A stretch of DNA of 64,000 bases from positions 352,001-416,000 of the forward strand of contig CAWJTV010000029.1 in NCBI GenBank assembly GCA_963845755.1, given 5' to 3'. Position 1 is the first letter of the stretch. Each line of letters begins with the position of its first letter. Below, in pieces: positions 29,756-46,879 of this stretch. Both the position numbers and the translations under genes were made by a program. The stretch comes from an uncultured Planctomycetota bacterium (GTDB taxonomy: Bacteria > Planctomycetota > Planctomycetia > Isosphaerales > Isosphaeraceae). The notes beneath the pieces were generated by a model. It worked only from the letters and a program-made list of their open reading frames with translations. It had not been told where the DNA came from and made no database searches.

Positions 29756-29782
29756 CGGGGCCCGGCGTCGCCAGGGAGCAAT

Positions 29783-29975
29783 GATTCCCCGTTCGTGCTT
29801 GGCAAACGTCCCCAGCCATGGTAATCTGTACGTTAATAATAACGAACTGATAATGAGTAGCGCCCCTGACGCATAGCGACTTCAACCACCTGCTGAGCAG
29901 CATCAAGGCCCTGTCGCCGGAACAGCTGCGCCAGTTCCGCCGGCAGCTCGACCGCCAGCTCGCCCAGCCGAAGAA
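29783..29975 (+). repeat. Direct repeat copy 1 (promoter plus antitoxin 5' end); copy 2 at 32563-32750
   Basis: CTTGGCAAACGTCCCCAGCCATGGTAATCTGTACGTTAAT...GACGCATAGCGACTTCAACCACCT...CAGCTCGACCGCCAGCTCGCCCAGCCG shared by both copies. Confidence 0.9.
29799..29827 (+). promoter_or_regulatory. Sigma70-like promoter TTGGCA-N17-TAATCT
   Basis: Identical copy at 32580-32608; variant TTGGCA-N17-TAGTCT at 33178-33206; each precedes an antitoxin gene. Confidence 0.65.
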
Positions 29976-30131
29976 ACGCCCCGCTTCGGTCAAGGCCGCC
30001 GCTGACGTTGAGGAAACCGCCTACGACGTGGCCAGCCGCGCGGGCTGATCGGCTGCTTCAAGGGCGCGCCGCGCTCACCCACCGACCTCGCCACCAACCC
30101 GAAGCACATGGAAGGCTTTGGACGTGATTAG
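29866..30131 (+). CDS. Putative VapB-like antitoxin (frameshifted; start codon damaged)
   Basis: THSDFNHLLSSIKALSPEQLRQ...AGLIGCFKGAPRSPTDLATNPKHMEGFGRD*; overlaps the PIN gene start. Confidence 0.6.
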
Positions 30132-30210
30132 CCGGACGCTGGCCGACACCGGCCCGCTGGTCGCCATCATCCGCACCCACAAGAAATGCACCGCCGCCTT
30201 GAAGGGTCAC
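30124..30210 (+). pseudogene. Truncated PIN-domain toxin N-terminus
   Basis: VISRTLADTGPLVAII...HKKCTAALK, then similarity stops. Confidence 0.55.
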
Positions 30211-30304
30211 ACCGACAATGCGGCGCGCAGATCGTGTCCAATCTCATTTCTGCGGAACGTCGGCTCAAGCGATTCTGAAGAACCTGGGGTGGAGATTTTG
30301 TACC

Positions 30305-30835
30305 ATGGCCAAGCTCGTCTATGGAATGAACCAGTCCTTGGATGGCTACGTCAACCATCTGGAATTTAGGCCAAGCCCGGCGCTCTTTCGTCACTTCATA
30401 GAGCAAGTGCGCGACGTGACGGGCAGTGTGTACGGTCGCCGCATGTACGAGGTCATGCGTTATTGGGACGAAGACAGCCCGGATTGGGGCGCGGAGGAAC
30501 ACGACTTCGCGGCGGCGTGGCGGAGCCAGCCGAAGTGGGTTGTGTCGCGCACGTTGAAGTCGGTCGGACCCAACGCCACACTGGTCGAGGATGACATCGA
30601 GGCGGTGATACGTGGGCTGAAGGCACAGTCTGTTGGGGAGATTGAAGTTGCCGGACCAGACTTGGCAGGAAGCCTAACCAACCTTGGTCTTATTGATGAG
30701 TATCGACTTTACCTCCACCCCATCGTACTGGGTCGTGGCAAGCCATTCTTCTCCGGCCCTCGGCCGCCGCTCCGCCTTGTGACCAGCGATCTCGTTGGCG
30801 AGGACGTGATTAGGTTGACGTACGTTCCCGCTTAA
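30305..30835 (+). CDS. Dihydrofolate reductase-like (RibD C-terminal domain) protein
   Basis: MNQSLDGY, YGRRMYE, PKWVVSRTL, GLIDEYRLYLHPIVLGRGKPFF. Confidence 0.9.
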   Translation: MAKLVYGMNQSLDGYVNHLEFRPSPALFRHFIEQVRDVTGSVYGRRMYEVMRYWDEDSPDWGAEEHDFAAAWRSQPKWVVSRTLKSVGPNATLVEDDIEAVIRGLKAQSVGEIEVAGPDLAGSLTNLGLIDEYRLYLHPIVLGRGKPFFSGPRPPLRLVTSDLVGEDVIRLTYVPA

Positions 30836-31258
30836 TCGCGCGACTCGCCCGACGGATTGCGCCGGGGCGTCAGGTCCACTTTGGGTCATCACGGTAGAAA
30901 AGTCCCGGTGGCGCAGCGGCGCAGCATTCGACCAAAACTGACGCTGCCCGTCAGATCGAATGCCTGCCAGGACAGCTCCTTACCCTAGTTTTACCCTTTC
31001 GAGGGGTTGGGCATTAATAGGGTTCATCCGGATCCGCGCGTGCCGGTCTTGAAAACGGTGGAGTTGTGATCTGGCCTCGCCCACGGCGAATCCTTGGCCC
31101 GAAGGGGCCGCAACCTAACCGCCCGGGGCAACGCCCCGGGAACGGAGCCCCCAACGGGAAAATGCCCTGAAAGGGCGACACAGGTGCAGGCCGCCGGCCC
31201 GGTTTGTCTGGCGCCTTCAGGGCAGGGATTGGGGTGGGCGACGCGTCCCCGGGGCGTT

Positions 31259-32247
31259 CAACTTATTCCATTTGGAACGTAAGTCCTTGTCGATTCACGA
31301 TCCGCACAGCATTGATCAGCAGTTTGGCCCAGACCCAACGCCACACCCGCCACGACCGGCGCACCCAGGCCGGCAGCGGACCCAGGCCGCCACCGAAGGA
31401 GGTCGCCTGGCCGAAGGATCGCTCGATCGCGCCGCGCATCGCGTAGAGGCTCTTCCCGAAATCTCCCTGCAACAGCTCGATGCAGCGGAGGCGGTACGGG
31501 CTTTGGCGGCGGTGTCCCAGTCCGGCCTTGGGGTCCTCGCGCGGGGCTACCAACTGGTAGCCCGCGGCGCCCGCCGCGTCGAAGACCGGGTTGGCGTCGT
31601 ACTCGCCATCGCCCAGCACGTAGCCACCGCCGCCGCAGTCGGCCAATTCCGGCAGCAACTGCTCGGCGGCCTTGGTCTCGGCGACATTCAGCGGTGTGAT
31701 CGAACACACCTCGGGCATCGGACGGTTGCTCCAGACGGCGTGCAATTTGTAGCCCTTGGCGATCTTGCCGGCGCCGTGGCCATTGCGGGCATCCGGATCG
31801 TGACTGGCACCACCAACCGGCAAGGGCTTACCGTCGAGGATCTGTACCAACCGCGGGGGGACTACATCGCGGAGCCGCGTCGCCAAAGTCCGCATGAGGA
31901 CGCCCACGGCCAAGCTCCGGAGTCGTCGGCTCAGAGTCGAGGGCGCGGGCAAACGACCCGGCTGGAGCGTCGTGGTCTTCCAGTGCCGAGGATCACAAGC
32001 CCAGCAGGCCGGTCGATCGTGAAGGGCGGCCCACAGGTGGACCAGGACCAAGATGTGGGGCTGGTAGGAGACGTTGACCTGGCGGATCGAGCCACCCACC
32101 GCCATGACGAGGTGATACAGTTGCGGCCAGAGTTCCAGTTCCATAGTTGCCCTCCTCTGAGGATTGTCTCTACTTCCATACATAGATACGATCCTGGGAG
32201 GGAAATTGTTCTGACATAAAGACTTGCGACCTAAATGGAATAAGTTG
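31259..32247 (-). mobile_element. 989-bp IS (DDE, IS4/IS5/IS982-like) inserted into the MITE hairpin
   Basis: TIR CAACTTATTCCATTT / AAATGGAATAAGTTG; GTT duplicated at 31256-58 and 32248-50. Confidence 0.9.
31263..32144 (-). CDS. DDE transposase
   Basis: PSTLSRRLR, ILDGKP, GYKLH, LGDGEYD, YAMRGAIERSFG. Confidence 0.9.
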   Translation of the reverse strand: MELELWPQLYHLVMAVGGSIRQVNVSYQPHILVLVHLWAALHDRPACWACDPRHWKTTTLQPGRLPAPSTLSRRLRSLAVGVLMRTLATRLRDVVPPRLVQILDGKPLPVGGASHDPDARNGHGAGKIAKGYKLHAVWSNRPMPEVCSITPLNVAETKAAEQLLPELADCGGGGYVLGDGEYDANPVFDAAGAAGYQLVAPREDPKAGLGHRRQSPYRLRCIELLQGDFGKSLYAMRGAIERSFGQATSFGGGLGPLPAWVRRSWRVWRWVWAKLLINAVRIVNRQGLTFQME

Positions 32248-32487
32248 GTTGCCCCGGGCTGGTTTGTCGGGGCCCCTTCGGGGCGATTCGTGGCGGCTTC
32301 GTGGTCACCAATTCGCGGCTTCCTGATCGGTCGGCGCGCGAAATCCGGATGAACCATTAATAGCCAAAAGCCTCCCACACGAAGCAGGCGGCACCGCCCA
32401 CCTCGGCCACGACCGCCGGAATCACCTCTGCACCGCCTGACCGGATCACCGCCGGCAACACCCCGCCGTCCATCTGTCCGTCCCTCC

Positions 32488-32536
32488 CTCGCCGGTTATC
32501 CTTGATAACGTCCTTTATCAAGGACGACCCGGCGAG
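32488..32536. other. dif-like tyrosine recombinase core site 1
   Basis: TCCTTGATAA CGTCCT TTATCAAGGA within a longer CTCGCCGG..CCGGCGAG palindrome. Confidence 0.65.
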
Positions 32537-32647
32537 ACAAGCAGCGATGCTTGACCTGCCGCGATTCCCCCGCCCCGGCTTGGCAAACGTCCCCAGCCAT
32601 GGTAATCTGTACGTTAATGATAACGAACTGATGATGAGTACCGCCCC

Positions 32648-32967
32648 GTGACGCATAGCGACTTCAACCACCTCCTAAGCAGCATCAAGGGCCTGTCGCC
32701 GGAGCAGCTCCGCCAGCAGCTCGACCGCCAGCTCGCCCAGCCGGAGAAGCCCGCGCCCCGGCAGCCACCAAGACCGCCAAGCGCGTCAAGGCCGCAACGC
32801 CGCCCAAAAAGACGCTGACGCCTGCCGAGATAGATCAATACATGCTGAGCATCGGCTTGTTGAGTCAGTTGCCAGATACCGCCGCCGACTATGACGATCC
32901 CGACGATGAGCCGATCACCATCAAGGGCGAGCCGCTGTCGGAAACCATCATCCGCGAGCGGCGCTGA
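32648..32967 (+). CDS. Putative orphan VapB-like antitoxin (one frameshift ~32758)
   Basis: GTG start; THSDFNHLLSSIKGLSPEQLRQ...ITIKGEPLSETIIRERR*. Confidence 0.6.
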
Positions 32968-33230
32968 CGGTGGCCGCCGCCGATGAGGACAACATGCCGC
33001 TGAACAAACCAAACCGGTGAGCAGCTTGCCCCGGAACAACTCGCCCGGGCGAGAAGGGAACAGACGGCCTCCGGTGCGGGTAATATGGTCAATCCTTCCC
33101 ATGTCGCCGCGTCCAACGTCGGCCTGCATGACGCGTGCATGATCTTCGAGCGGCCGTAACCAACGGTGCCGCTTCGCTTGGCAACCGGCGGCGGTTGTGC
33201 TAGTCTGCAAATCATAGGAGCAAAACCTCT

Positions 33231-33485
33231 ATGACCATCCATTTATCGGGACAACGGGAGCGGATCGTTCTTTCCCTGCTGGCCGCCGGAAAATTCGCAT
33301 CGGCGGATGAGGTGATCGACGAAGCCTTGCGGCTGGTCGGGCAGCGGTATCAGGATGCGGATGCGGCGGCACAGCAGCTTGACAATCTCAGGCAATTGGG
33401 ACGCAAGCTGGACGCCATGCCGGTGGAATCCGCCGCCGATGGGCTGACCAACCGCGACCATGACCGGCTGCTCTACGGCAAATGA
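33231..33485 (+). CDS. Ribbon-helix-helix (ParD/CopG-like) antitoxin
   Basis: MTIHLS...AGKFASADEVIDEALRLV; C-terminal NRDHDRLLYGK; ATGA overlap with the PIN gene. Confidence 0.8.
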   Translation: MTIHLSGQRERIVLSLLAAGKFASADEVIDEALRLVGQRYQDADAAAQQLDNLRQLGRKLDAMPVESAADGLTNRDHDRLLYGK

Positions 33486-33883
33486 CGCCGATCTTCGTTG
33501 ATACCGGTGCATGGTTCGCCCGGTTCGTGCCGTCCGATCCCGACCATCCGGCCGCCCGCGAGTGGTTCGAGCACAATACGCATCCCTTGCTGACCACGGA
33601 TTACATCGTCGATGAATTGCTGACCGTGCTCAAGGTACGCGGCGAGTTTCAGCGTGCCCTGGAAGTCGGCCCCGCCTTGCTCAACGGCGATGTGTGCCAC
33701 CTCGAATGGGTGAGCCGGGCCGATGTGGCGAACGCCTGGAAGGTATTTTCCGCCTATCGGGAGAAAGGCTGGAGCTTCACCGATTGCATCAGCCGGGCCG
33801 TGATGGAACGGCTTGGCATCGCCACGGCGGTGGCGTTCGATGAGCATTTCCGCCAGTTCGGGACCGTCACCGTCCTGCCGTGA
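33482..33883 (+). CDS. vapC: VapC/PIN-domain toxin
   Basis: IFVDTGAW, TTDYIVDE, SFTDCIS, AFDEHFRQFG. Confidence 0.9.
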   Translation: MTPIFVDTGAWFARFVPSDPDHPAAREWFEHNTHPLLTTDYIVDELLTVLKVRGEFQRALEVGPALLNGDVCHLEWVSRADVANAWKVFSAYREKGWSFTDCISRAVMERLGIATAVAFDEHFRQFGTVTVLP

Positions 33884-34004
33884 CGGCAACCGGCCTGCCC
33901 GGTCGGAACCGTTATCCCCTCACCCTCGCCAACTGGCGCATCTGACGCCCGCCGCTGGTCGATCCTTCGTTTGCTGGACGCCGGACAGAGGACCCTGTGG
34001 GTGG

Positions 34005-34030
34005 TATCCGATAAAGGGCGTTATTGGATG
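34005..34030. other. dif-like tyrosine recombinase core site 2
   Basis: ATCCGATAA AGGGCG TTATTGGAT. Confidence 0.6.
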
Positions 34031-34047
34031 GACTGTCCACAATCCAC

Positions 34048-35139
34048 TTATGATTCTGGAAGCTTGTCAGCCTCTAGGTAGTTGGCGAGTTTGGCGACAA
34101 GCTTAGTTCGCTCCGAACTTGTGGCCAACTCCAGACCTGGCAAAAAATTCTCGTTTGTCTTTACGAATCGAGCAGTTCGGATGAGTATAGAACGAACATT
34201 ATCAATTGACCGATCTATAAAATTTTTGGCGATAATTGTTTGTTCCACCGGAATCTTGGTTCCGACAGCGTGAGCACCGTCGAAGTTACTTCTGATCACA
34301 ATAATTGGGATGATCTGACTCTCTATCTGAGCATCCGTGTATCCAAGAAGCCTGCACGTAGCCCTGATTTTATCATTTGTCTGACCAGGTGCCGCCTTAT
34401 TTACCAGTAATATTTCAAGACATTTTGCCAGATTTATAATAACTTCTGAATACATTTGGTATGGAGCTGAAATAACCTCATGAGGAGATAAAAAACGTAA
34501 CGCGTGCTGAAAATACACAGACGCCGTAATCAGACGCGGGCATGATTGAATCCACTGTTTTTGAAGATCAATTGCCTCAAATATTAACTTATCTCTGGTA
34601 TCCCTTGACAAAGGCAGGAGCCTGGCCATAAAAGCTTCTGGCGCTACCACTAACGTGAACTTAATTTGGTCGGCTATCTCTCCCTGAATCGCAACAACAT
34701 CAACAAATATACCAAATATTATTGATAACGAAGATGTTAAGGTTGAAACAATAAAATCAGTCGCTGCATGCAAATCATTCTGATTATTAATTATCAATTT
34801 ATACGTAAACTCACTGCCATTGACAGAGATCGTACGATCTGGCAACGTGTCCCAGTTGCCTGTCCCAGTTGCTGCAGGCAGAAATTCTGATGATTCTGAT
34901 GATAATACACCTGTATTTCTATCAATAGTTATCCGAGTGGGGCTGCCTACGATTCCCGTAACACGAGGTGACGTGGTTTCCGATGGTTCAAATAATTCCT
35001 TAGGTGCCAGTCTGCCTACAAGGGTAAGCACCGCCGGATATGTAAGGTGGTCCAAAGACCGAAGCGGTGGCGTCGAATCAATGGAAAGGTTTCGTTGTCG
35101 TACAAGAAAACATGGCATAGAATCACCTGCAGATCGCAT
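34048..35139 (-). CDS. Low-GC hypothetical protein with a putative C-terminal HEPN domain
   Basis: Visibly AT-rich; helical C-terminus with NLAKCLEILL and RSNFDGAH (Rx6H). Confidence 0.6.
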   Translation of the reverse strand: MRSAGDSMPCFLVRQRNLSIDSTPPLRSLDHLTYPAVLTLVGRLAPKELFEPSETTSPRVTGIVGSPTRITIDRNTGVLSSESSEFLPAATGTGNWDTLPDRTISVNGSEFTYKLIINNQNDLHAATDFIVSTLTSSLSIIFGIFVDVVAIQGEIADQIKFTLVVAPEAFMARLLPLSRDTRDKLIFEAIDLQKQWIQSCPRLITASVYFQHALRFLSPHEVISAPYQMYSEVIINLAKCLEILLVNKAAPGQTNDKIRATCRLLGYTDAQIESQIIPIIVIRSNFDGAHAVGTKIPVEQTIIAKNFIDRSIDNVRSILIRTARFVKTNENFLPGLELATSSERTKLVAKLANYLEADKLPES

Positions 35140-35192
35140 GACGAGGACTGTGAGACATCGAAGATGCTTCAGTTGCAGTCAGCGTACGTCCC

Positions 35193-36185
35193 TCAAATCG
35201 GAATCCGCTCGACGATGTTCCGCGTCACCCGCTTCTTCCTCCGGTCATAGAGCGTCGTCGTTCGCGGCTCCGCATGCCCGGCCAGATATTGCACGGCCTC
35301 CATCGGCACCCCCTGCTCCAGCAGCGAGGTGATCGCCGTCACCCGGAAGGAATGCGGCGACAGCCGCGACGGCAGCCCGGCATCCTTCAGCCGCCGCTTG
35401 ACCAGCTCGCAAATCCGCTCCGTGCCCAGCGGCTTGGCCGCCAGCTTCCGGCTCCGGCCGTTCGACGCCCTAAACAGCGGCGAATCCTTGGCCTCACCGG
35501 CGATGCCCGCCGCCTCGACATATGCCAGTATAAATTCCTCCAGGTCGTGCCGCACCGGGATTTCCCGGCTCTTGCCGCCTTTTTCCTGGAACCGCAGCAT
35601 GTATTGCTGGCCTGTCATGCTGAAAGTCGCCCAGCCGGAGCTTGGCCACCGCCCCGGCCCGGCAGGCGGTATAGGCCAGCGTGGCGAGGATCGCCCGGTC
35701 CCGCAGCCCGACCACATGGCCGGTCTATCTGACCGACCGCAGCAGCGTCGCGTCGGCCTGCTCGATGGTGATCTCCGGCGTCTTGCCCTCGATCACCTGA
35801 TCCTTGACGCCCCGCACCGACGACGCCGGGTTGAGGATGCAGACGTGCCGGTTCACCAGCCGGTCGAAGAAGCCACGAACGCCGCCAGATGCTGATTCCG
35901 CTTGGCGGGCGATCCGCCCAAGCCCACGAGGTACTGGCCGACCATGCCCGGCGTAATGGCCGCCAATGCCACCCCCTGCCCCTCGGCCCAGCCCAGGAAC
36001 GCCTTGACCGCCCGCAGATAGGCTTTCTGCGTGTGCGGGTTATGGTGCTCGGCATAGAAGAATTCCTCCCAGGCGAAGCGGCCGCCCCCCCGGCCCGCTC
36101 GACCAGATCCGGCAGCGTCGCCGCCGCACCCGTTGCTGGTACGCTCACCGCCGACGCTGTGACCAGTTCCGTGCTCATCACTCAT
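35193..36185 (-). CDS. Tyrosine recombinase with N-terminal SAM-like domain (several frameshifts)
   Basis: NPHTQKAYLRAV, GLRDRAILATLAYTACR, EKGGK, SPHSFR, LAGH, TTTLYDR (R-K-H-R-H-Y catalytic set). Confidence 0.9.
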
Positions 36186-36555
36186 CGCCCCGCTTCGCGC
36201 ACACCATCTCCTCGACCATCAGCCGGGACAGCTTGACCGTGGGATACATGTCATCTTCGAAGAGTCCATTATCCCGCCCCTCCCGCTTCACGACCTTGTC
36301 CATCAGCTTGCCCATCCTGGCCGCGGGATACCAGTCTCGCGTGACCGGATCGATCCGGATGGTCAACGTCCGGTCCGTCGGATGCATCAGCCTCTGACCC
36401 TCCCAATACCAGCCCGCATCAAGATAAACTTGAATGCTCGCTTCCTCATCGACCCCTCGGCGTTCCCGCCCCGCCCGTTCTTCCAGTGTGAGTCCATCGC
36501 CCCCGCTTTGATCGCCGCGCATGTATGCCGCCCCCTTTCTGATTCCATCATCCAT
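36178..36555 (-). CDS. Small hypothetical protein co-oriented with and overlapping the recombinase start
   Basis: 125-aa ORF whose stop overlaps the recombinase ATG region. Confidence 0.55.
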   Translation of the reverse strand: MDDGIRKGAAYMRGDQSGGDGLTLEERAGRERRGVDEEASIQVYLDAGWYWEGQRLMHPTDRTLTIRIDPVTRDWYPAARMGKLMDKVVKREGRDNGLFEDDMYPTVKLSRLMVEEMVCAKRGDE

Positions 36556-36577
36556 CCCGGCACTGCGTTGTCAATCC

Positions 36578-36611
36578 CTAGCTGTAGATAAAGGGGATTA
36601 TCTACGCCTAG
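36578..36611. other. dif-like tyrosine recombinase core site 3, upstream of the recombinase operon
   Basis: CTAG-CT-GTAGATAA AGGGGA TTATCTAC-GC-CTAG. Confidence 0.7.
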
Positions 36612-36916
36612 TGCCTCCGCTCACCAGGATGCACGTTGTTAACTTCCCCGGTATTTGTCACCCTCTTGCCCCGGTATTTGTCACCCTGCCTGGAAGAACC
36701 TGGCCATGACTTTTCCGGGCAACCAAGATGAGGCGTCGATCCCGGCGCGGCCGTGAGGGCACTTCGGCGGTAAGCGAAAATGGGTCTGCACAGACGGGTA
36801 ACCACCGGCCGCAGCAGACCCGGCGTTCCGGGATAGCCGGGGCGATTACTTTCGGGTGCAACGGCTGATCCATACTTGACCCGTTGCAGATACTTTGTTG
36901 GCCTTTCATTGATCGA

Positions 36917-37492
36917 TCACGCCTCGACGGTTTCCTCGTAGACGCGCCGGCCCGTAGGAGACCAATACCGGTAGGCGGTACACGTCCATTTCGTCATGAG
37001 CCGCCGAAACCCGTAGAACTGCATCACCTCCACCCGAGGAAAAGGTGGCGCGCCAGGCCGCCAAACGGTATGGACTGACGCTTGGCGGTGTCGCCGTGTC
37101 CGTGAGGGAATAGCCATACGAAAGATGAGGTCCCGAGACGATGGTCGGCCATCTGTCGCAATCCAGCTTTGTGACCCTGGACACCAGGCCCACTGCCCGA
37201 ACCAGTCGAACTCCGGAAGGCCCGTGAAACTGAAACCGTTGGCCCCGTAGCCCGATGGCCAGGCGAAGCTTCCGTCCGCAGTCCATCGGGCTTTATTCGG
37301 CGCCATCCAGTGAGAGCACCGACCAATCTGCGTGAGGACGCGGTGGGGGCCAGCCACTAGCCGGGCCAACGCTTCGGCATCGGCGTAGATAGTGTCGAGC
37401 ACGACCGGCCACAGCGTGGGATCATCCTCTTCGCCAAGCAGCGGGGCGATTACCGGCTCGAACAAAGGCCAGAATTCGAGATGCTCTGCCAT
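36917..37492 (-). CDS. Hypothetical cargo protein (Trp-rich)
   Basis: ATG after GGAGG; 191-aa ORF inside transposon 1. Confidence 0.55.
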   Translation of the reverse strand: MAEHLEFWPLFEPVIAPLLGEEDDPTLWPVVLDTIYADAEALARLVAGPHRVLTQIGRCSHWMAPNKARWTADGSFAWPSGYGANGFSFTGLPEFDWFGQWAWCPGSQSWIATDGRPSSRDLIFRMAIPSRTRRHRQASVHTVWRPGAPPFPRVEVMQFYGFRRLMTKWTCTAYRYWSPTGRRVYEETVEA

Positions 37493-38311
37493 GTAGCCTC
37501 CCCTGCCAAGAATTCCAGTCAACCGGCGCAAGCCTTGGCGTGTGTTAATCCTCGACTCTAATCTACCCGTTACCCTTCCTCGCCGCGCCCAGGACCGAGT
37601 GTCAAGTTTCGATTATCGATCACTGTTTGTGCTCGGTCTGCGTCTATTCACCCTTTACACCTGGGACATTTGTGGGACATCCCTTGGGCGATCGCCTGCT
37701 GGCCGGAGATTCGGCGCGGTCAATCCCCAAATGATAACAGTCCGCACCGCTCCTTGCGTCTGACAAGCACTCGCATGACGACGTATCCGCGACGCGGAGT
37801 CGCAAGGGTCAAACCACCTCCGCCAGGAATCAAGAGCCGATTGCGTCATCCATTATCGAAAGGCGCAACAATTACGCCTTTCATAGGCATCCTCCGATCA
37901 TCCGGTTTTCGCTGCAGCCTGTTTTTGGCCGCTCAGCAGCTTCTTACCGTCCGGCCTGAGCTTCCCTTGGGATCGACATGGCGGTAGAGCGTCTGGCGGG
38001 TGATTCCCAGCTCGGCACATAGCTCGCCCACTTTCGTCTCCGGCTCCCCCATCGACGCCATTGCCAGGCGGAGCTTGGCGGCGGTCATCTTATAGGGTCG
38101 GCCGCCGTTCCTCCCCCGGCGCGGGCGGCGGCCATGCCCGCCTTGGTCCGCTCGACGATCAATTCGCGCTCGAAATCGGCCAGGGCGGCGAAGATGCCGA
38201 AGACCAGCTTGCCGCTCGGGGATGTGGTGTCGATGCTCGCCCCGTGGCCGCTCAGGACCTTGAAGCCGATGCCGCGCACGGTCAGATCGTGCACGGTGTT
38301 GACCAAGTGTC

Positions 38312-39220
38312 TCAGAGGGGATTTGGAAAATTAAGCGGCCTGGAAATCTCGACCCCCTCATTTTGTGAAACTAGGGAATATTGGTGCGTCGGTTCCAAAC
38401 GTCGGAGCATAATATGAATCATTGCCATCTGAATCATAGCCTCACTCGTCTCGGTCAATCCCTCGTAGTCCTTACTCAGTCGGCGATATCGTCCCAGCCA
38501 GCCGAACGTCCGCTCCACCACCCACCGCTTCGGCAGCAGCTTGAACCCTTTGGTATCGTCCGTCCGCTTGATCACCTGCAACTCCCAACCGCATTCGCTC
38601 TCGACCCAGGCGATCAGCCATCCCTTCTCATAGATGCCATCGGCCCAGATGACCTTCAACCGCGGACAGCGACCCTTGACCTTCTCCAGCACCGGCTTGG
38701 CCCCGTGGTAGTCCTGCACCCCTGCGGACGTCACGACCACCGCGATCAGCAGGCCCAGGGTGTCCACCAAGATATGCCGCTTCCGGCCCTTCACCTTCTT
38801 CCCCGCATCGAAGCCCTGGATCCCGCCCACCTCGGTTGTCTTGACCGACTGGCTGTCCAGGCTGGCTGCCGACGGTTCGGGATCGCGTTCCGACGCCTCC
38901 CGTACCATCGGCCGCAACGCGTCATGAATCCGCGCGATCGTCCCGGTGCGCCGCCACTGACTGAAGTAGTCGTAGGCGGTCCCGGGCGGGGGAAAGTCAT
39001 GAGGCAGCAGGTCCCAGGCACAGCCGGTGCGGAGCACGTAGAGGATGGCGTTGAGGACCTCTCGCATGTCGGTCGGTGCGCGGTCGTCCGCCGCCCGGCG
39101 GCGGGGGCAACAGGAGTGGATCATTTCCCATTGGGCATCGGTGAGGTCGGTCTCGTAGGGGGTTCGCGATTGCGTGGTCGGGGTCCGCGGAGGTCGCTGA
39201 GGCTTGTGGGCTCGTGGCAT
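38312..39220 (-). CDS. IS5-family transposase
   Basis: YETDLTDAQW, LRTGCAW, DSQSVK, KGRKRHILVDTLG, RWVVERTFGWL; stop codon formed by the TSD. Confidence 0.9.
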   Translation of the reverse strand: MPRAHKPQRPPRTPTTQSRTPYETDLTDAQWEMIHSCCPRRRAADDRAPTDMREVLNAILYVLRTGCAWDLLPHDFPPPGTAYDYFSQWRRTGTIARIHDALRPMVREASERDPEPSAASLDSQSVKTTEVGGIQGFDAGKKVKGRKRHILVDTLGLLIAVVVTSAGVQDYHGAKPVLEKVKGRCPRLKVIWADGIYEKGWLIAWVESECGWELQVIKRTDDTKGFKLLPKRWVVERTFGWLGRYRRLSKDYEGLTETSEAMIQMAMIHIMLRRLEPTHQYSLVSQNEGVEISRPLNFPNPL

Positions 39221-39329
39221 GGCGTCATCAGAGGAAAAGGATGTCGGAGTTCAAGGAGGCCAACGACCCGTTTCTACGTCAATGCACACCGAAGGTTCGC
39301 CTAATCCCTGTAAGTTCCCAGATCCCCTC
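38315..39329 (-). mobile_element. IS5-family (IS1031-like) insertion sequence
   Basis: TIR GAGGGGATTTGGAAAATTA / TAAGTTCCCAGATCCCCTC; TCA duplicated (38312-14, 39330-32). Confidence 0.9.
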
Positions 39330-39584
39330 TCAGATCGCGGCCCAGCCGATCGAGCTTCCAGACGACCAGCGTGTCGCCCTGCCGCAACGCCTTCAGGCAG
39401 GCCGCCAGGCCGGGCCGGTCATCCCGCTTGCCGGAGGCGGCATCTTCATAGAGGTGTCGGGCATCAACCCCGGCTGCCAGCAGGGCATCGCGTTGCAGGT
39501 CGGTCACCTGGCTGCCGTCCGCCTTGCTCACCCGCATGTAGCCGACCAGCATGTCCCCTCCCTCCCATTGACGGATCAACCGAT

Positions 39585-39700
39585 TTTCCATGTCACTTAA
39601 ACGTTCGGTTGCGTGACGAACGGCTTTGGGCGGCATCATCGCCGCAAATCCGTCACGTAACCTGTCACATTTTCTAAGTTGCATAAACCATCGCCATAGT
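39585..39700. promoter_or_regulatory. Probable res site of the TniR-like resolvase
   Basis: TGTCACTTAAACGTTCGGTTGCGTGACG and CGTCACGTAACCTGTCACAT motifs directly upstream of the resolvase. Confidence 0.55.
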
Positions 39701-39805
39701 TGATTGAGTGACAGGCCATTCCGGGGGGGTGACAAATAGCAGGGAAAGAAGGATGACAAATAGCGAGTCACTTAACACATGCGTGCTGTTAACTTCCCCG
39801 AAATG

Positions 39806-39926
39806 GGTTCTCCCGCACTTTTGATGATCCACGACCGCCAACTCACACCGAAATCCCCATCTTGACGCGATTCTCGGTCGTTTCGGCCCGGAGTGGCACC
39901 ATCCTCATCAAGAGTGCGGAAGAACC
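39806..39926. mobile_element. 121-bp MITE inserted inside the left end of transposon 2
   Basis: TIR GGTTCTCCCGCACTTTTGATGA / TCATCAAGAGTGCGGAAGAACC (2 mismatches); flanks ..GAAATG / AGTAAATG. Confidence 0.8.
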
Positions 39927-39996
39927 AGTAAATGTCACCCTTTTTGTCCCGCTATTTGTCACCCTGCTTCAAAGAAGCCAGCCATGAGGTTTCCTT

Positions 39997-40568
39997 TCAA
40001 GATGCGTTGATGCCGGCCTCGCGCACATAGGCATAGAGCGTCGGCTTGCTGATGCCGACCGTGTGGCAGATTTCGGCGACGGTGTGCTTCCGCTGCCGGT
40101 ACAGATCGACTGCCAATGATTTCTGCCTGGCATCGAGCGACTTCGGCCTGCCACCGGTACGCCCCCTGGCCCTGGCGGCGGTCAGGCCGGCGTGGGTGCG
40201 TTCGCGGATCAGGTTGCGTTCAAATTCGGCCAGTGCCCCGAAGACATGAAATACCAGCTTGCCGCCCGGTGTGGTGGTGTCGATGGCCTCTTGCACGCTC
40301 TGGAAGCCGATGCCCTGCCGTTCCAGCTCCGACATCAGCTCGATGAGATGTTTGAGTGACCGGCCCAGCCGGTCGAGCCGCCACACCACCAGCACGTCAC
40401 CTTGCCGCAGCAGCTCCGCGCCCGTTCCAGGCCGGAGCGTTGTTGCTTGCTGCCGCTGGCGGTGTCCTCGATGATCTTTTCGCATCCGGCTTTGGTCAGG
40501 GCGTCTTTCTGCAAATCGGGGTTCTGTTCGGAGGTGGAAACGCGGGCATATCCTATACGCATGGCCAT
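39997..40568 (-). CDS. Serine resolvase/invertase (frameshift ~40420)
   Basis: RIGYARVST, WRLDRLGRS, FERNLIRERT, GGRP, ISKPTLY helix-turn-helix. Confidence 0.9.
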
Positions 40569-40581
40569 ATTTTCCACGATT

Positions 40582-40717
40582 GGTAAAGAAACTCGCCGAG
40601 TTGCGGCGACTTCTTACGTTGATTTCTTTACCGAGTTTTCTTACTCCAAAACTCGGGAGAAAGCAAGCGCGACCAAATCCGGCGCGGGAAGTAAGAAAAA
40701 CGAGGGTTTTCTTTACC
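40582..40717. promoter_or_regulatory. res site with repeated GTAAAGAAA/TTTCTTTAC half-sites
   Basis: GGTAAAGAAACTC, TTTCTTTACCGAGTTTTCTTAC, GTAAGAAAAACGAGGGTTTTCTTTACC. Confidence 0.65.
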
Positions 40718-40825
40718 AGGCGTTGGGTAGCGGCAAACGCGAGATAGTGTGCTTAGCATTGAGTTCGTGCGACAAATGTCAGATAATGCCCTCGTCCTGA
40801 GCATCGCACTCGCGAGGGCCGCCAC

Positions 40826-42139
40826 ATGTCCGACCAGACATCACCAGAGACCAAGCCTTCCAGCCGACCATCGACAGGATGCGGACGGCGATGGCATCGC
40901 GTCGTCCTGAGCGTCCGCACCCTGATGCTGCTCGTCCTGGTGCTCGGCGGCGGCCTAGGGTGGGTAGCCCACCGCGCCGCCGTCCAGCGCCGGGCCGTGG
41001 CCGCCATCGAGGCCGCCGGCGGCCGGGTCTTCTACGACTGGGACCTCTCCGGCGGCGTGGCTAAGCCGCCGGGCACACGGCGGCCCTGGCTGAAATGGCT
41101 CTGCGATCGACTCGGGCCCGATTACTTCGGCGACGTGACCTCGGTCTTCCTGGATGGCCGAGGCGGTGTCAGGGCCGACGACGTCCTTATGACCCACGTC
41201 GGCCGCCTCGCACACCTCGAAGATCTGCACATGCCCGACAACGCCTCGGTGACCGACGCAGGACTCGTTCATCTCCGGGGCCTGGATCGGCTCAGGAGCC
41301 TAGACCTGAAGGCGTCGGGGGTCAGGGGGCCGGGGCTGGCCCATCTGAAGGGCCTGACCCGGCTGACCACCCTCCGGCTCGAAGGTCTGCCGGTCTCCGA
41401 CGACGATCTCGCCCACATCTCCGGGCTGAGCCAGCTTATCGCCCTGGGCCTTTCCAGTGACCGGGTCTCCGACGCCGCCCTGGAGCACCTGAAGGGCCTC
41501 ACGTCGCTAGAATCGCTCTACCTGGCCTGCCCCGGCATCACCTCCGGTGGCCTGGTGCATCTCCGGGATAAGGTACGACTCAGGACCCTGGCCCTGATCT
41601 CAACCCGGGTCGATACCTTGGTGCCGATCGAGGGGCTGACCGGGATCACGTACCTGGCGCTGGTCTCCAATCGGATCGACGACTCGGGCCTGGGCCCGGT
41701 CGCGGGTTACTATCGCCTGGAGACTTTGGTTCTGAGCGAGCCTCGGGTCAGCGATGCTGGATTGAGACACATCGCCGGCCTGGTACGGCTGACCCGGTTA
41801 CGCCTGGATGGGCCGGTGTTGACCGGCGTGGGGCCGCCCCGCCCCCCGGGAAGTGCGGGCATCACCGACGCCGGGCTTGATTCGCTGCGTGGCCTCGCCA
41901 ATCTGAAGGAGCTGTGGTTGGACGATTCGGCGGTCACCGATGCGGGTCTCATGCACCTGTCCGGTTTGAAGGAATTAGGCACGCTCTCGCTCAAGAATAC
42001 GGGAGTCAGCAATGTCGGCTTGGCGTGGCTGACCGGGCTTTCGAAGTTAGGTAGATTCCACGTGACAGGTACGAAAGTGACCCCGGCAGGAGTCGCCGGC
42101 GTGCAGTCGAAGTTGCCCGGGGTGAAGATCATCCCTTGA
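40826..42139 (+). CDS. Membrane-anchored leucine-rich repeat protein
   Basis: LSVRTLMLLVLVLGGGLGW TM; repeated VTDAGLxHLxGLxxLxxLxL units. Confidence 0.9.
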   Translation: MSDQTSPETKPSSRPSTGCGRRWHRVVLSVRTLMLLVLVLGGGLGWVAHRAAVQRRAVAAIEAAGGRVFYDWDLSGGVAKPPGTRRPWLKWLCDRLGPDYFGDVTSVFLDGRGGVRADDVLMTHVGRLAHLEDLHMPDNASVTDAGLVHLRGLDRLRSLDLKASGVRGPGLAHLKGLTRLTTLRLEGLPVSDDDLAHISGLSQLIALGLSSDRVSDAALEHLKGLTSLESLYLACPGITSGGLVHLRDKVRLRTLALISTRVDTLVPIEGLTGITYLALVSNRIDDSGLGPVAGYYRLETLVLSEPRVSDAGLRHIAGLVRLTRLRLDGPVLTGVGPPRPPGSAGITDAGLDSLRGLANLKELWLDDSAVTDAGLMHLSGLKELGTLSLKNTGVSNVGLAWLTGLSKLGRFHVTGTKVTPAGVAGVQSKLPGVKIIP

Positions 42140-42241
42140 GTCGCGGAGCTTTACCCGAAATCCGATTCTCGTCTAGCCAGCGAGCCCCCGTCGGATCGAC
42201 AGCCTGAAAGGTAAAGAAAACGGTGGGTATCTTTACTGTCT

Positions 42242-43196
42242 TTATGCCGTCCCGATCACCAGGCTTTCACGTGCCGCTTCCACCACCGGAAGTGCGACCT
42301 TCTCCAGCTTGTTGATCTCCAGGACGCGGCCGATCTGCGTCAGCAGGCGGTGGAGCAGCCGGAAATTCCCGCCCGTGATGCGGATGATCGCGGCGATGCT
42401 CTCCTCATCGGCGATGCCGCCGTCGGGCATGGGCGCGAGGGCAGGCCACCATCGCTCCTGGAGCAGTTGCCGCACTTCCTCGCGGGACAGGGGCTTGAAC
42501 TCATGAACGAACCCGATCCGGGAATAGAGCTGCGGGTAGCGGGCGAGCTGTTTTTCAAGCCCCGGCATGCCGATCAGCACCATCCCGATGCCGCCCTGGT
42601 CGAAGATGGCGCATCTGCTCCAGCCCGGTCATCTTCAGGCGGTCGGCCTCGTCGATCAGGATCAGGGCCGTGGGATCGGGCTGGGCACGCTCCGCTCCTT
42701 CATGGCTGTCGAAGATTCGCCGCCACGCATCCTGCCGGCGGGCGACCTCCTCGGGAGGCTCGTCGAAGCCATTCAGGCCGGTGCGGCGGTGGTACTCATA
42801 CAGGGCCTCGACCTCTCGATTCGCGGATTCCAAGCGGGGCCGTTCCTCGCGGCGGATTTCCTCCAGGAAGAAGCCTCGCAGCTTGCCCCGCAACCGCTCG
42901 ATATCGTTCGGCAGCCGGCCGGGAGACGTGACGACCACCGGCGGCGTGTAGAAGACGACGGCGCTGCCCTTGACTTGCTCCAGCGTGACCGTGCCGCCCG
43001 GCGCATCGGGCCGGTAGCGTTCGATCGTATCCCAGTTGGCATAATGCCGGGCGGACAGCGTCTTGCCGACGCCCGGCGGCCCGTAGCACAGGCCGATGTA
43101 TTGATAGCGGCGGCAGGCGTCGCAGAATTCCCGGAAGCGACGGTGTTGCTTCGTCTCGATGAATCCTTGGCCCGTGACGCTACTCGTCACAGGCAT
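42242..43196 (-). CDS. tniB: TniB/TnsC-like AAA+ ATPase (frameshift ~42610)
   Basis: Walker [10 protein letters not shown], Walker [30 protein letters not shown]. Confidence 0.85.
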
Positions 43197-44561
43197 ACCG
43201 CTTCAGCTTGACCGGCGACGGCACGGGTTGCGGCGGCTCAACCGCCGGAGTCTTCTCGCCGGCATCCCACCGTTTGGCTTCGATCAGGGAATCCACCACG
43301 CGGCGGCGATCTACCAGCGTCTGGCGGAGTTCGCGGCGGCGGCGGTTCCGGGCGCTGACGATGTCGCGGAGGGGGACGGTCGCGCCCGCCAGTTCCTGGC
43401 ACACCGCCCGGCAGAGGAATCGGCCCTGGTGGAACACCCGGACCTCCGCCACGTCGCGCGGATCGTAACGCAGCATGACCTCCTCGCCGACATAGGCGGC
43501 GAGCGTCGGGTCGATGTAACGCATGCCCATGAAGCGGATGCCATCCTGCTGCACCCGCCGCGTCCTGGCGACGGTGAGCAGCAACAAATCGAGCCGCTCC
43601 AGCGAATCCGGCATCTGGGGCAGGAAGCCGCCCGCATCCCAGCGGGCCTGCGGTGCCTGGCCGGTCGTGCTGTGCGGCGTGACCAGGTATTCCCCGATCA
43701 GGTAGGTTTCGATCTCGCCGGCCAGGTCCGCTGCGTCAGCACGGCGGCCCGGTCCGCCTGCGTCCGGGAATAGCCGGGCAGCCGCGAAAGGAGCACCTGG
43801 GAGAGCGAGTCGAAGAACCGCTCGATCTTTCCCCGCCCGCGTGGCCGCGCGACGCTGGAGAAGATCAGCCGGATTTTCAGGTCGGCCGCCACCTGCTCGA
43901 TATGCCGCGAGGTGAAATCGCTGCCGTGATCGGTATAGAGCACCTGCGGGATGCCGCAGACGTGCCAGCCCGGTTGCGGCTTCCGCCAGATCGCCTGCCG
44001 CAACGCCAGGGCCGTCTGGATCGCCGAGGGGGCCGACAACGAGAGGAAATAGCCCGCCACCGCCCGGCTGTAGTCGTCGAGGATGATCGTCAGCCAGGGC
44101 CGGCGGGCGGTGCCGTCGCCGTCCTTGACGAGGATGTCGAGTTCGGTGTGATCGGCCTGCCAGATGGCATTGGGAGCGTCCGCCTCGCGGCGATGGACCA
44201 GGTCGAAGGATTCGCTATACGCTTTCGACCCCTCATGGGCCAGCGTCAGCAGGGCCGGTTCCAGCTTGCCGATCACGGCATGGACCACCTTGTAGCTCGG
44301 CGGCTCCTGCCCCAGCTTCTTCGCCGCCTCGGCCACCTCGCGATGGATGGTAGCCGTCGGCAGCCTGGGCTTTCGCAACGCCAGCCCCTCGATGAGTTGC
44401 TGGAGGGCAGGCGTCAGCTTCCGCTTGTCCTTGTCGTCCCGCTCCTTGCGGGCCAGGCCGGTCAATCCTTCCCGGCGGTAGCGATCGACCCAGCGGCGGG
44501 CGGTGCGGAGGACGATGCCTTGTTCCCGGGCGATTTGAGTCAGAGGGACGCCATCTTCCAG

Positions 44562-46209
44562 GAGCCTGTCTGAGAACTCTGACCCGCATTGTCGCGGATG
44601 AGCCAGGTGTACGGACGGAGTCGGTTCGGGCACAATGCGGGTTTCCGACCTTTCCTCTACCTTGGTGCCTGATCGGGGAGCCGAATCATGGAGGGCCGAC
44701 GCAAGACCTACCGAGCCTGGGACCCTCGACAGAATGGTCACGACGCCATCTCGCCGCCGGAGGCGCTCCCCGAAGACGATCTGGTGTTCTTCCTCATCGA
44801 TCTCATCCCGCAGCTTGACCTCACTCCGTTCCACAAGCATTATGCCCAGGAACTGCGCGGCCAACCCCCCTTCGACGTGACCATGATGGTGACGCTGCTG
44901 GTCTATGCCTACTGCATCGGTGTCCGCTCCAGCCGGAAGATCGCCGCCGCCTGTGAGCGCAATCTGGCGTTCCGAGCCATTGTCGGTATCGATCGGCCCG
45001 ACTTCCGCACTATCAGCGATTTTCGCAAGATCCACCTGGCGGCACTGCGGCCCCTGTTCCTTGAGGTGCTGCGCATCGCGGGCGAGTTGGGGATGGTCAA
45101 GTTGGGGAACCTGTCCACCGACGGGACCAAGATGGGGGCCAACGCCTCGCGGCACAAGGCGATGAGCTACGGCTACATGGGGAAGGAAATCGAACGGCTG
45201 AAGGCCGAGATCGAGCAAATGCTCCAGGAAGCTGAGCAGCTCGACGCCGAGCAAGATGCGGCGTTGGGGAGCCGTCGCGGCGACGAACTGCCGGCGGAAT
45301 TGAAGCGGCGTGACGATCGGTTGGCCAAGATTCGCGAGGCGAAAGCGCGGCTGGAAGCCGAGGCGGCTGCCCGGGCGGACGAAGAACAACGCCGCCGGGA
45401 TCAGGCCCAAGCCCAGCGGGAAGCGGACGGCCGCAAACGCCGGGGCAAGCCACCGGCTCCGATCGATCCGAGTCCCGAGGAGAAGGTGCAAATGAACTTC
45501 ACCGACCCCGAAGCGAAGATCATGAAGCAGAGCAACAAGGGGTTCGATTATTCGTACAACGCCCAGGCGGTGGTGGATGGCGCGCACCAGATCATCGTCG
45601 CCCCGGACGTGACCTCAGCGCCCAACGACAAGGAACAGGCGGTGCCGATGGCGCAAGCAGCCTTAAACAATCTGGAGGCGGCTGGGATCCCGCGGCCGAT
45701 GGCCAGCGACGGGACCCCGACGCCGATTCCGAACACGGCGGACACGGGCTATTTCAGCGCGAAAGCGGTGGCGGGACTGGAGCAGCTCGGCATGGACCCG
45801 TATGTGGCTGTTGAGCGTCAGAAGCACCACGTGGCTGCGGTGACGTCGGCGACGACGGCTCCCGCACCGGAAGCGAGTGTGAACGAGAAGATGCAGCACA
45901 AACTGCGTACGGCGGCCGGCAAAGCCCTGTACGCGGCGCGGAAGCAGATCGTCGAACCGGTCTTCGGCCAGATCAAATTCGCGCGGGGGATTCGCCAGTT
46001 TCTGCTCCGTGGCTTGGAGAAAGTCTCCGCCGAGTGGCAACTGATCGGCCTGACCCACAATCTACTGAAGATTTGGCGCCACACCTGCGCCGCCGCCGAG
46101 AGTTGAGTGGGATAGTGCGCGCCGAGGGCGGGGCCGAGGCCGAAATGGCCAAGGCCCGGTGGGAACCCAGGGGCCAAGGCGAGACACGGGCGAATTCTCG
46201 GACAGGCTC
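44562..46209 (+). mobile_element. IS1182-family insertion sequence
   Basis: TIR GAGCCTGTCTGAGAACTC / GAATTCTCGGACAGGCTC; flanks CCAG / CTAG. Confidence 0.9.
44688..46106 (+). CDS. IS1182-family transposase
   Basis: RSSRKIA, PDFRTISDFRK, DGTKMGANAS, NFTDPEAKIM, YNAQAVVD, ADTGYFS, VEPVFGQIK. Confidence 0.95.
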   Translation: MEGRRKTYRAWDPRQNGHDAISPPEALPEDDLVFFLIDLIPQLDLTPFHKHYAQELRGQPPFDVTMMVTLLVYAYCIGVRSSRKIAAACERNLAFRAIVGIDRPDFRTISDFRKIHLAALRPLFLEVLRIAGELGMVKLGNLSTDGTKMGANASRHKAMSYGYMGKEIERLKAEIEQMLQEAEQLDAEQDAALGSRRGDELPAELKRRDDRLAKIREAKARLEAEAAARADEEQRRRDQAQAQREADGRKRRGKPPAPIDPSPEEKVQMNFTDPEAKIMKQSNKGFDYSYNAQAVVDGAHQIIVAPDVTSAPNDKEQAVPMAQAALNNLEAAGIPRPMASDGTPTPIPNTADTGYFSAKAVAGLEQLGMDPYVAVERQKHHVAAVTSATTAPAPEASVNEKMQHKLRTAAGKALYAARKQIVEPVFGQIKFARGIRQFLLRGLEKVSAEWQLIGLTHNLLKIWRHTCAAAES

Positions 46210-46474
46210 CTAGGAAGGGGCGTATGATCTGAAATCGGGCGAGAGCACGCGACCGGGCCTCTTCGGGCAGGTTGCTCAATGAGACGGCGAGGGCTTCCAC
46301 TGGCTTGGGTGGATGACTCATGGATGAACACGATACGGCCGTGCATTTCCGCCGTCAACGACCCGGGGTGACAAATAGCGGGGCAAAAAAGGTGACATTT
46401 ACCGGGCAAGTTAACATACAGGGGGGTGAATTCGCAGCGACCCAAGGGTGTGCGCAACGCAATCGTTACGCGCT

Positions 46475-46879
46475 CTATGGGGAGTCAAATCGATCGCTGT
46501 CGGTCTTGTGCGCGGACACGTCACCCAGAATGTCGCAGAGGAGGTCGAGTCCCGTGTCTTCGGCGGGCGGTCTTGACCGCCAGAACTCCTGCTGCCGAGA
46601 CATTTCGTCGGCGGACTCACCAAGCCTCGGGGCCTCGAAGTACAGGATCGTCTCGCCCTCGTGACCCCCGTCGATGCCAACGAACCGAATATCCGATGCA
46701 GAAACGAGCCAGGCCGGCCGACGGCCCGGCGGGCGGCTGCGGCCGAGAAATCCCATCAGGATCGATCGCCGCACGGCCGGCCCGATCAGGCGCAGCAGGT
46801 TGCCGACTGGGACGGGCGGCGCTTCACTTCCGTACTCGGCGCGTCCCATGAGCCGGATCGTGTGATGGATTCGATGCAT
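46475..46879 (-). pseudogene. Hypothetical protein, probably truncated near the transposon end
   Basis: ATG after AGGAGG; ORF ends ~60 bp from the right end of transposon 2. Confidence 0.45.

What the first reader, a model, noticed from the sequence alone, without database searches (positions are those of the whole stretch)
36637..46416. Two tandem Tn552/Tn5053-like transposons without tniQ, inserted 31 bp from the recombinase core site
Seen: four related TGT..ACA ends with repeated ATTTGTCACCC motifs define element 1 (36637-39777) and element 2 (39787-46416). They have the same orientation and are only 9 bp apart. Element 1 starts 31 bp after dif-like site 3. Element 2 has a Mu-like transposase and an AAA ATPase but no TniQ; element 1 has only a resolvase and cargo. 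No matching 5-6 bp target duplications are visible. Known: Tn5053 and Tn552 families preferentially insert at serine-resolvase res sites. Inference: this family may target tyrosine recombinase sites instead, without TniQ, which would make this an insertion hotspot.
Basis: partly seen in the sequence, partly recalled or inferred. Interest (0 to 1): 0.72.

Follow-up and report, generated by a model that had tools for sequence, protein, structure and literature searches.

The report
Transposon that hunts tyrosine-recombinase sites
Two decayed jumping genes of the Tn552 family sit 28 bases from a tyrosine-recombinase cutting site, and their relatives in several bacterial phyla land at the same distance from such sites, a target preference this family was not known to have.

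Summary
Observation largely confirmed. Two same-orientation Tn552-family elements lie 9 bp apart, the first 28 bp from an 11-6-11 tyrosine-recombinase (YR) site. Both are broken by insertion sequences. Lack of TniQ is ordinary: Tn552 also has only a transposase and an ATPase.

The targeting idea held up. In three sets of homologous ends, 11 of 155, 6 of 68 and 5 of 24 had such a site 25-33 bp outside the end; 0.3 were expected in all. Of 132 ends, 33 had a recombinase gene pointing away within 420 bp and none pointing towards.

Target type follows the transposase lineage. In the window's lineage, whose ATPase carries a ~45-aa helical insertion, 20 of 51 elements abut YR sites or genes and none a serine resolvase. 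Other lineages gave 5 and 8 of 53. The YRs tested are not XerC/XerD.

Most ends sit elsewhere, so this is a preference. The mechanism (ATPase loading beside the bound recombinase) is inferred, untested. Nine literature searches showed no report. Earlier scan notes cover only serine-res targeting.

Verdict: new variant of a known kind.

The parts
35193..36185 (-). Tyrosine recombinase gene, frameshifted in this assembly; presumed owner of the target site
   Evidence: Pfam Phage_int_SAM_1 and Phage_integrase in two frames; an intact 340-aa orthologue with the same upstream ORF and site lies in G001:C26
36178..36555 (-). 125-aa ORF between recombinase gene and site, no family
   Evidence: conserved in G001
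36581..36608 (.). 11-6-11 palindromic core site (GATAA-N6-TTATC), the inferred target; 28 bp from element 1
   Evidence: this site type lies within 420 bp upstream of 32 of 62 tyrosine recombinase genes examined
36637..36686 (+). Element 1 left end: TGT plus two transposase-binding repeats
36917..37531 (-). Element 1 cargo ORF, 204 aa, no Pfam family
37963..39558 (-). Element 1 serine resolvase, split by an IS5-type element
   Evidence: about 80% DNA identity to resolvases of full elements L096, L209, L030
38316..39328 (-). IS5-type insertion sequence with a short duplication
39727..39777 (-). Element 1 right end (transposase-proximal type); transposase and ATPase are missing from this element
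39778..39786 (.). 9-bp spacer; not a duplication of either flank
39787..39964 (+). Element 2 left end, interrupted by a 121-bp MITE at 39806-39926
39997..40577 (-). Element 2 serine resolvase, frameshifted
40826..42139 (+). Leucine-rich-repeat cargo gene
42242..43196 (-). MuB/TnsC-like AAA+ ATPase, frameshifted, of the long type (131 aa between Walker A and B)
   Evidence: relatives match MuB and TnsC by profile and fold
43180..46321 (-). Tn552 p480-type DDE transposase, split by IS1182 and a frameshift
44562..46209 (+). IS1182-type insertion sequence inside the transposase gene
46366..46416 (-). Element 2 right end
46417..46477 (+). Dispersed genomic repeat whose left half is missing exactly at the transposon end (probable adjacent deletion)

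Best explanation
These are two decayed members of a Tn552-family lineage that hunts tyrosine-recombinase sites. Element 2 was a full element (transposase, ATPase, serine resolvase, cargo); element 1 is a deletion derivative that needed the two proteins in trans. Shown by sequence comparison: ends of this lineage lie preferentially 25-33 bp from the edge of 11-6-11 sites of mobile, non-XerCD tyrosine recombinases, on either side of the site and with either end facing it. They make 5-10-bp duplications and share no third gene. Inferred: the MuB/TnsC-like ATPase loads on DNA beside the recombinase-occupied site, covers about 20-25 bp and recruits the transposase; the cointegrate is resolved by the element's own serine or tyrosine resolvase. 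Inferred more weakly: the extra helical hairpin in this lineage's ATPase is the part that senses the recombinase. In the window, the pair probably arrived or was rearranged as a unit, and a deletion at the right end removed the duplication.
For: Sites at offset 25-33: 11 of 155 ends besides the window; then, with the rule fixed, 6 of 68 and 5 of 24, with 0 hits at 42,880 other positions in those two sets. Half-sites: 31 of 214 against 2.1 expected. Recombinase gene pointing away within 420 bp: 24 tyrosine, 9 serine, 0 pointing towards, of 132 ends. Among elements that carry a serine resolvase, the window's lineage has 6 of 18 at tyrosine targets and 0 at serine genes; other lineages have 1 and 8 of 27. 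Three copies in Methylomicrobium lacus each lie 29 bp from a site, two of them in opposite orientations. Homologous targets were hit at offsets 30, 30, 26 and 27. L052 is a 2.5-kb element with only transposase and ATPase, a 7-bp duplication, a palindrome at offset 28 and a recombinase gene on the other side. The same-genus genome G001 has an end remnant 36 bp from the orthologous site, with different DNA in between. ATPase model: pLDDT 94, MuB/TnsC fold, long helix 88-135 plus helix 154-166 between the Walker motifs.
Against: No experiment. About 90% of ends have no full site, and the closest relatives (L011, L030, L091, L092, L096) and the mini-element on C34 show none. Only 1 of 14 homologous sites elsewhere was occupied. 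The site rule also matches upstream of 16 of 76 serine resolvase genes, so some sites without a nearby tyrosine recombinase gene may be misassigned. Five of 53 elements outside the long-ATPase lineage also abut tyrosine targets, and the lineage's root has support 0.55, so the insertion-target link rests on about one evolutionary event. Loci are related, so P-values overstate. Neither element in the window has a duplication, so a direct insertion at this site is not proven.
Confidence: 0.65

Rival explanations
1. The transposase or ATPase reads the DNA of the site directly (ATAA-N6-TTAT or its bend); the recombinase protein is not needed.
For: The ATAA core is shared by nearly all hits; many hits have only the proximal half-site; several sites have no recombinase gene within the fetched flank.
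Against: The outer arms vary freely, and palindromes with other cores sit at the same offset (L046, L052). The known serine-res hunters need the cognate resolvase (title of Minakhina 1999, seen in reference lists).
Confidence: 0.17
2. The ATPase senses any tight, bent protein-DNA complex (a roadblock). Tyrosine and serine sites are both hit, and the lineage split only reflects which recombinases occur in each host.
For: Both site types are used within the family; spacing and duplication length are loose; 5 of 53 short-ATPase elements abut tyrosine targets; most ends are at neither type.
Against: No lineage was seen to mix both types. The long-ATPase lineage has 0 of 51 at serine resolvase genes although 18 of them carry one. 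Host and lineage were not separated, so this rival stays open.
Confidence: 0.12
3. No targeting: recombinase modules and transposons simply co-occur in mobile islands, or a few ancient junctions were spread by recombinase-driven cassette shuffling.
For: The window's recombinase family is itself carried inside related elements (L017, L018, L022, L025). The window is an island full of insertion sequences. Loci are not independent.
Against: Narrow offset peak, 0 hits elsewhere in two replication sets, 33 to 0 orientation bias, different offsets in homologous targets, opposite orientations in one genome, and hits in at least five phyla with different flanks.
Confidence: 0.04
4. Element 2 targeted the serine res site of element 1 (classical res hunting), and only element 1 relates to the tyrosine site.
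For: Element 2's left end lies within about 230 bp of the region upstream of element 1's resolvase; nesting at transposon res sites is known (PMC7765201 passages).
Against: Element 2 lies outside element 1, not in its res region, and its lineage shows 0 of 51 elements at serine resolvase genes. This concerns only the order of events here.
Confidence: 0.1

Closest known systems
Tn552 of Staphylococcus aureus (p480, p271, Bin)
   Same: Two transposition genes plus a resolvase, no TniQ, arrays of end repeats, 6- or 10-bp duplications, deletion derivatives that keep only resolvase and cargo, insertion next to recombination sites (PMC3276174 passages). A close homologue is 48-49% identical to staphylococcal plasmid transposases.
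   Different: Tn552 targets serine (Sin/Res) res sites. This lineage sits beside tyrosine-recombinase sites, has a longer ATPase (121-134 aa between the Walker motifs in nearly all, against 72-107), and often uses a tyrosine resolvase itself.
Tn5053/Tn402 res-site hunters
   Same: TnsB/TnsC-like pair, replicative transposition, targeting of recombination sites.
   Different: They encode TniQ, thought to be the selector (PMC11406308 passages), make 5-bp duplications and target serine res sites.
ISAba32 subgroup of the IS1202 family
   Same: DDE elements that insert beside tyrosine-recombinase sites, with tandem stacking (bioRxiv 10.1101/2022.12.17.520857 passages).
   Different: Single gene, no ATPase, 5-6 bp from host XerCD sites, fixed orientation. 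Here the gap is 25-33 bp, both orientations occur, and the recombinases tested are not XerC/XerD.
Tn6022 TnsF and Tsy
   Same: A link between tyrosine-recombinase folds and target choice (PMC10293859 passages).
   Different: There the element encodes the recombinase-like selector and targets comM; here the recombinase site is the target.

Membership tests
Tn552 family | p480-type DDE transposase with Mu-type C-terminal domain | tested here: met
   Pfam rve and Mu-transpos_C; homologue P0001 48-49% identical to staphylococcal plasmid copies
Tn552 family | MuB/TnsC-like ATPase directly downstream, no TniQ or TnsA | tested here: met
   only transposase, ATPase and a resolvase are shared among 17 elements and the window
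Tn552 family | TGT...ACA ends with repeated transposase-binding sites | tested here: met
Tn552 family | Resolvase for cointegrate resolution | tested here: met
   serine resolvase in both elements, broken; serine or tyrosine in relatives
Tn552 family | Target duplication of 6-10 bp | tested here: inconclusive
   absent in the window; 5-10 bp in relatives
Tn552 family | Preference for serine res sites (behaviour of the type element) | tested here: not met
   0 of 51 in the window's lineage, 8 of 53 in other lineages; this difference is the variant described
Tn5053/Tn402 family | TniQ gene | tested here: not met
   (weak control)
Tn5053/Tn402 family | 5-bp duplication | tested here: not met
   1 of 17 duplications in related elements was 5 bp, the rest 6-10
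XerCD/dif system (as the target) | Recombinase passes the XerC or XerD equivalog cut-off | tested here: not met
   27 recombinases from related loci scored at most 188 bits against cut-offs of 330-335; sites with no gene nearby could still be Xer sites
Recombination-site hunters (works-like) | Targeting needs the site to be occupied by its recombinase | not testable with these tools
   needs a transposition assay

The most novel reading that the evidence does not exclude
The helical hairpin added to the ATPase is a built-in target selector. A two-protein transposon with no TniQ would then find its target by direct contact between the ATPase and a tyrosine recombinase bound to its site, and it could be redirected by moving or re-specifying that recombinase.
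Probability: 0.3. Interest if true: 0.85.

Novelty: new variant of a known kind. Interest (0 to 1): 0.7.

Why it matters
How Tn552, with no TniQ, finds resolvase sites is not explained in the passages I read. A sister lineage that uses tyrosine-recombinase sites, keeps a 25-33-bp spacing and differs by one visible insertion in the ATPase gives a natural swap experiment for that question. It also extends 'res-site hunting' to the other recombinase superfamily, offers a reason why transposons pile up at tyrosine-recombinase cassette arrays in soil bacteria, and points to a minimal two-gene targeted integration system.

Tried and rejected
No target duplication of 4-12 bp in the window, in any pairing. 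No second transposase or ATPase copy in the genome, which is 88% complete. TniQ search of the genome was negative, but its controls were silent too. No third conserved gene in 17 elements. PLSDB plasmids: the 40 of 620 ATPase hits listed all spanned about 800 bp (short type), so they added no long-type test set. No public run held more than 11% of the region's words, so no reads were laid and the empty allele was not seen. The maximum-likelihood tree did not finish; FastTree was used. A fixed orientation, as in ISAba32, was rejected: both end types face sites. XerC/XerD as the adjacent recombinases was rejected. PMC8138268 and PMC5704250 matched only Tn5520. Petrovski and Stanisich 2010 was not held. 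Whether the 1-bp frameshifts are real or assembly errors was not settled.
Full report
OBSERVATION. The window lies on contig C29 of a 14.3-Mb, 88%-complete genome. The nearest named transposase relatives are Planctomycetota. The four ends exist at the stated coordinates, in the same orientation and 9 bp apart. An 11-6-11 palindrome with a GATAA-N6-TTATC core occupies 36581-36608, 28 bp from element 1. It lies about 400 bp upstream of a frameshifted tyrosine recombinase (YR) gene. No duplication of 4-12 bp exists in any pairing. The right flank is a dispersed repeat whose left half, present in the other 20 copies listed, is missing exactly at the end. I read this as an adjacent deletion (inference). 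No other transposase copy is in the assembly.

FAMILY. A close homologue (P0001, 94% identical) is 48-49% identical to staphylococcal plasmid transposases. The ATPase matches MuB and TnsC by profile and fold. Tn552 encodes two transposition genes, p480 and p271, and a resolvase, inserts at sin res sites, and has deletion derivatives that keep only resolvase and cargo (PMC3276174, passages). So these are Tn552-family elements, element 1 is such a derivative, and the lack of TniQ is ordinary.

TEST OF TARGETING. I fetched the best 80 of 546 genome loci and the best 80 of at least 554 metagenome loci, plus five stretches from relatives. Ends were called with a profile; 13 duplicate loci were dropped first. 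Set 1: 12 of 156 distinct ends, the window's own included, had a site in that window, at offsets 25-33, against 0.33 expected; 12 hits fell at 69,080 other positions. With the rule fixed, set 2 (ends found by pattern in 121 genomes of the own family) gave 6 of 68 new ends and 0 at 31,168 other positions. Set 3 (ends in five further genomes) gave 5 of 24 and 0 at 11,712; five new matches not starting with TGT were left out. Pooled without the window: 22 against 0.32. The proximal half-site alone was found in 31 of 214 flanks against 2.1 expected (a few near-duplicates included). Of 132 ends with at least 450 bp of flank, 24 had a tyrosine and 9 a serine recombinase gene pointing away within 420 bp, and none had one pointing towards the element.

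INDEPENDENCE. Hits come from Planctomycetota, Armatimonadota, Chloroflexota, Gammaproteobacteria and Verrucomicrobia (record titles). Methylomicrobium lacus has three copies, each 29 bp from a site; two face it with opposite ends and have duplications of 9 and 10 bp. Homologous targets were hit at offsets 30, 30, 26 and 27. In L022, L158 and L052 the site is on one side of the element and the YR gene on the other, with duplications of 6, 6 and 7 bp, so both sides of a site are used. The same-genus genome G001 carries the intact orthologous gene and site, different DNA beyond it, and an end remnant 36 bp away, seen by eye. Kin are still not independent, so I give no weight to P-values.

ARE THE PALINDROMES YR SITES? 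The same type of palindrome lies within 420 bp upstream of 32 of 62 YR genes, mostly 70-130 bp upstream, many of them resolvases inside these elements. Two such sites flank a paralogous YR gene on contig C40. Against this, the loose rule also hits upstream of 16 of 76 serine resolvase genes. None of 27 YRs tested reaches the XerC/XerD cut-offs, and most target YRs fall in one clade that includes the window's enzyme.

LINEAGE. On a transposase tree of 162 sequences, serine-adjacent elements fall in two clades and tyrosine-adjacent ones in others. In the 70-leaf lineage that holds the window, all 47 intact ATPases are long; outside it 1 of 60 is. Among elements with at least one scored end, 20 of 51 in this lineage abut a YR site or gene and none a serine gene; elsewhere the counts are 5 and 8 of 53. 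The contrast holds among elements that carry a serine resolvase (6 and 0 of 18; 1 and 8 of 27), so the target does not follow the element's own resolvase. The lineage root has support 0.55, with two subclades at 0.97 and 1.00, and host phylum was not controlled.

MECHANISM. Only transposase, ATPase and a resolvase are shared by 17 bounded elements and the window; L052 has just the first two. The AlphaFold model of the L076 ATPase (pLDDT 94) shows a 48-residue helix and a second helix between the Walker motifs. From memory, this is where MuB and TnsC carry their DNA-contacting initiator-specific motif, and a two-turn TnsC filament covers about 25 bp; both are recalled, not from a call. The gap between site edge and duplication is about 19-27 bp in the cases with a duplication, which fits an ATPase ring or short filament loaded beside the bound recombinase. 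That step and the role of the hairpin are inference. Direct reading of the DNA, or a general roadblock effect, remain open.

AGAINST. About nine in ten ends have no full site. The five closest relatives with a called end, and an 8-bp-duplicated mini-element on C34, show none. Of 14 homologous sites in other genomes, 1 is occupied. The window's own junction lacks a duplication, so it is consistent with the rule but does not prove it.

LITERATURE. Nine searches showed no report of Tn552-family insertion at tyrosine-recombinase sites; for I saw the top 20 of 304 listings. The library lacks most subscription journals and transposon databases, and I read no supplements. Seen as passages: PMC3276174, PMC7765201, PMC11406308, PMC10293859, PMC8138268, PMC5704250 and bioRxiv 10.1101/2022.12.17.520857. 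PMC8649781 was seen as passages and section 11, which notes tyrosine resolvases inside Tn7-like elements. Rowland 2002 and Minakhina 1999 were seen as titles only. The nearest precedent for the target class is the ISAba32 subgroup at XerCD sites. Earlier scan notes describe serine-res targeting by Tn552-like elements on other DNA, and none of those returned describes tyrosine sites.

VERDICT. The locus is a decayed example of a real and apparently undescribed behaviour: a Tn552-family lineage that prefers tyrosine-recombinase sites at a set distance. New variant of a known kind; interest 0.7.

Noticed in passing
window 29780-36610: Array of three 11-6-11 sites (32498, 34004, 36581) with a PIN toxin-antitoxin-like pair, a RibD-like gene, a low-GC 363-aa ORF and a truncated second recombinase start; looks like a tyrosine-recombinase cassette array. 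A paralogous recombinase on contig C40 is flanked by two such sites.
   Followed up: partly
G000:C34:736547-737521: 975-bp non-autonomous element with related ends and an 8-bp duplication at the end of a MoxR-like ATPase gene, not near any site.
   Followed up: partly
window 39806-39926: 121-bp MITE with at least five more copies in the genome; the same inverted repeats also bound 1.8-2.5-kb stretches on C13 and C6, possibly the parent insertion sequence.
   Followed up: no
window 46417-46477: Member of an abundant dispersed repeat family (dozens of copies, G-rich hairpin), truncated here.
   Followed up: partly
L031, L033, L035, L039, L042, L044-L047, L051, L114, L115: Many Tn552-family elements carry a tyrosine recombinase with a single 11-6-11 site 70-130 bp upstream in place of a serine resolvase, from several unrelated recombinase clades.
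   Followed up: partly
L218 2722-6957: Two mini-elements flank a recombinase and IS91-like transposase module, each 28-30 bp from a half-site like the window's sites at 36581 and 34004.
   Followed up: partly
L075 889-9423; L076 6264-14798: Stacked, partly duplicated ends 54-70 bp apart suggest repeated insertion at the same spot.
   Followed up: no
L311 6990-7100: Long 9-bp tandem repeat just beyond the recombinase site.
   Followed up: no
G149 (20 matches): One Verrucomicrobia genome holds 20 end-like sequences, several beside related half-sites at offsets 26-31.
   Followed up: partly
window 31248-32378: Another insertion sequence (DDE_Tnp_1) with 41-bp inverted repeats interrupts the truncated recombinase gene.
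   Followed up: no
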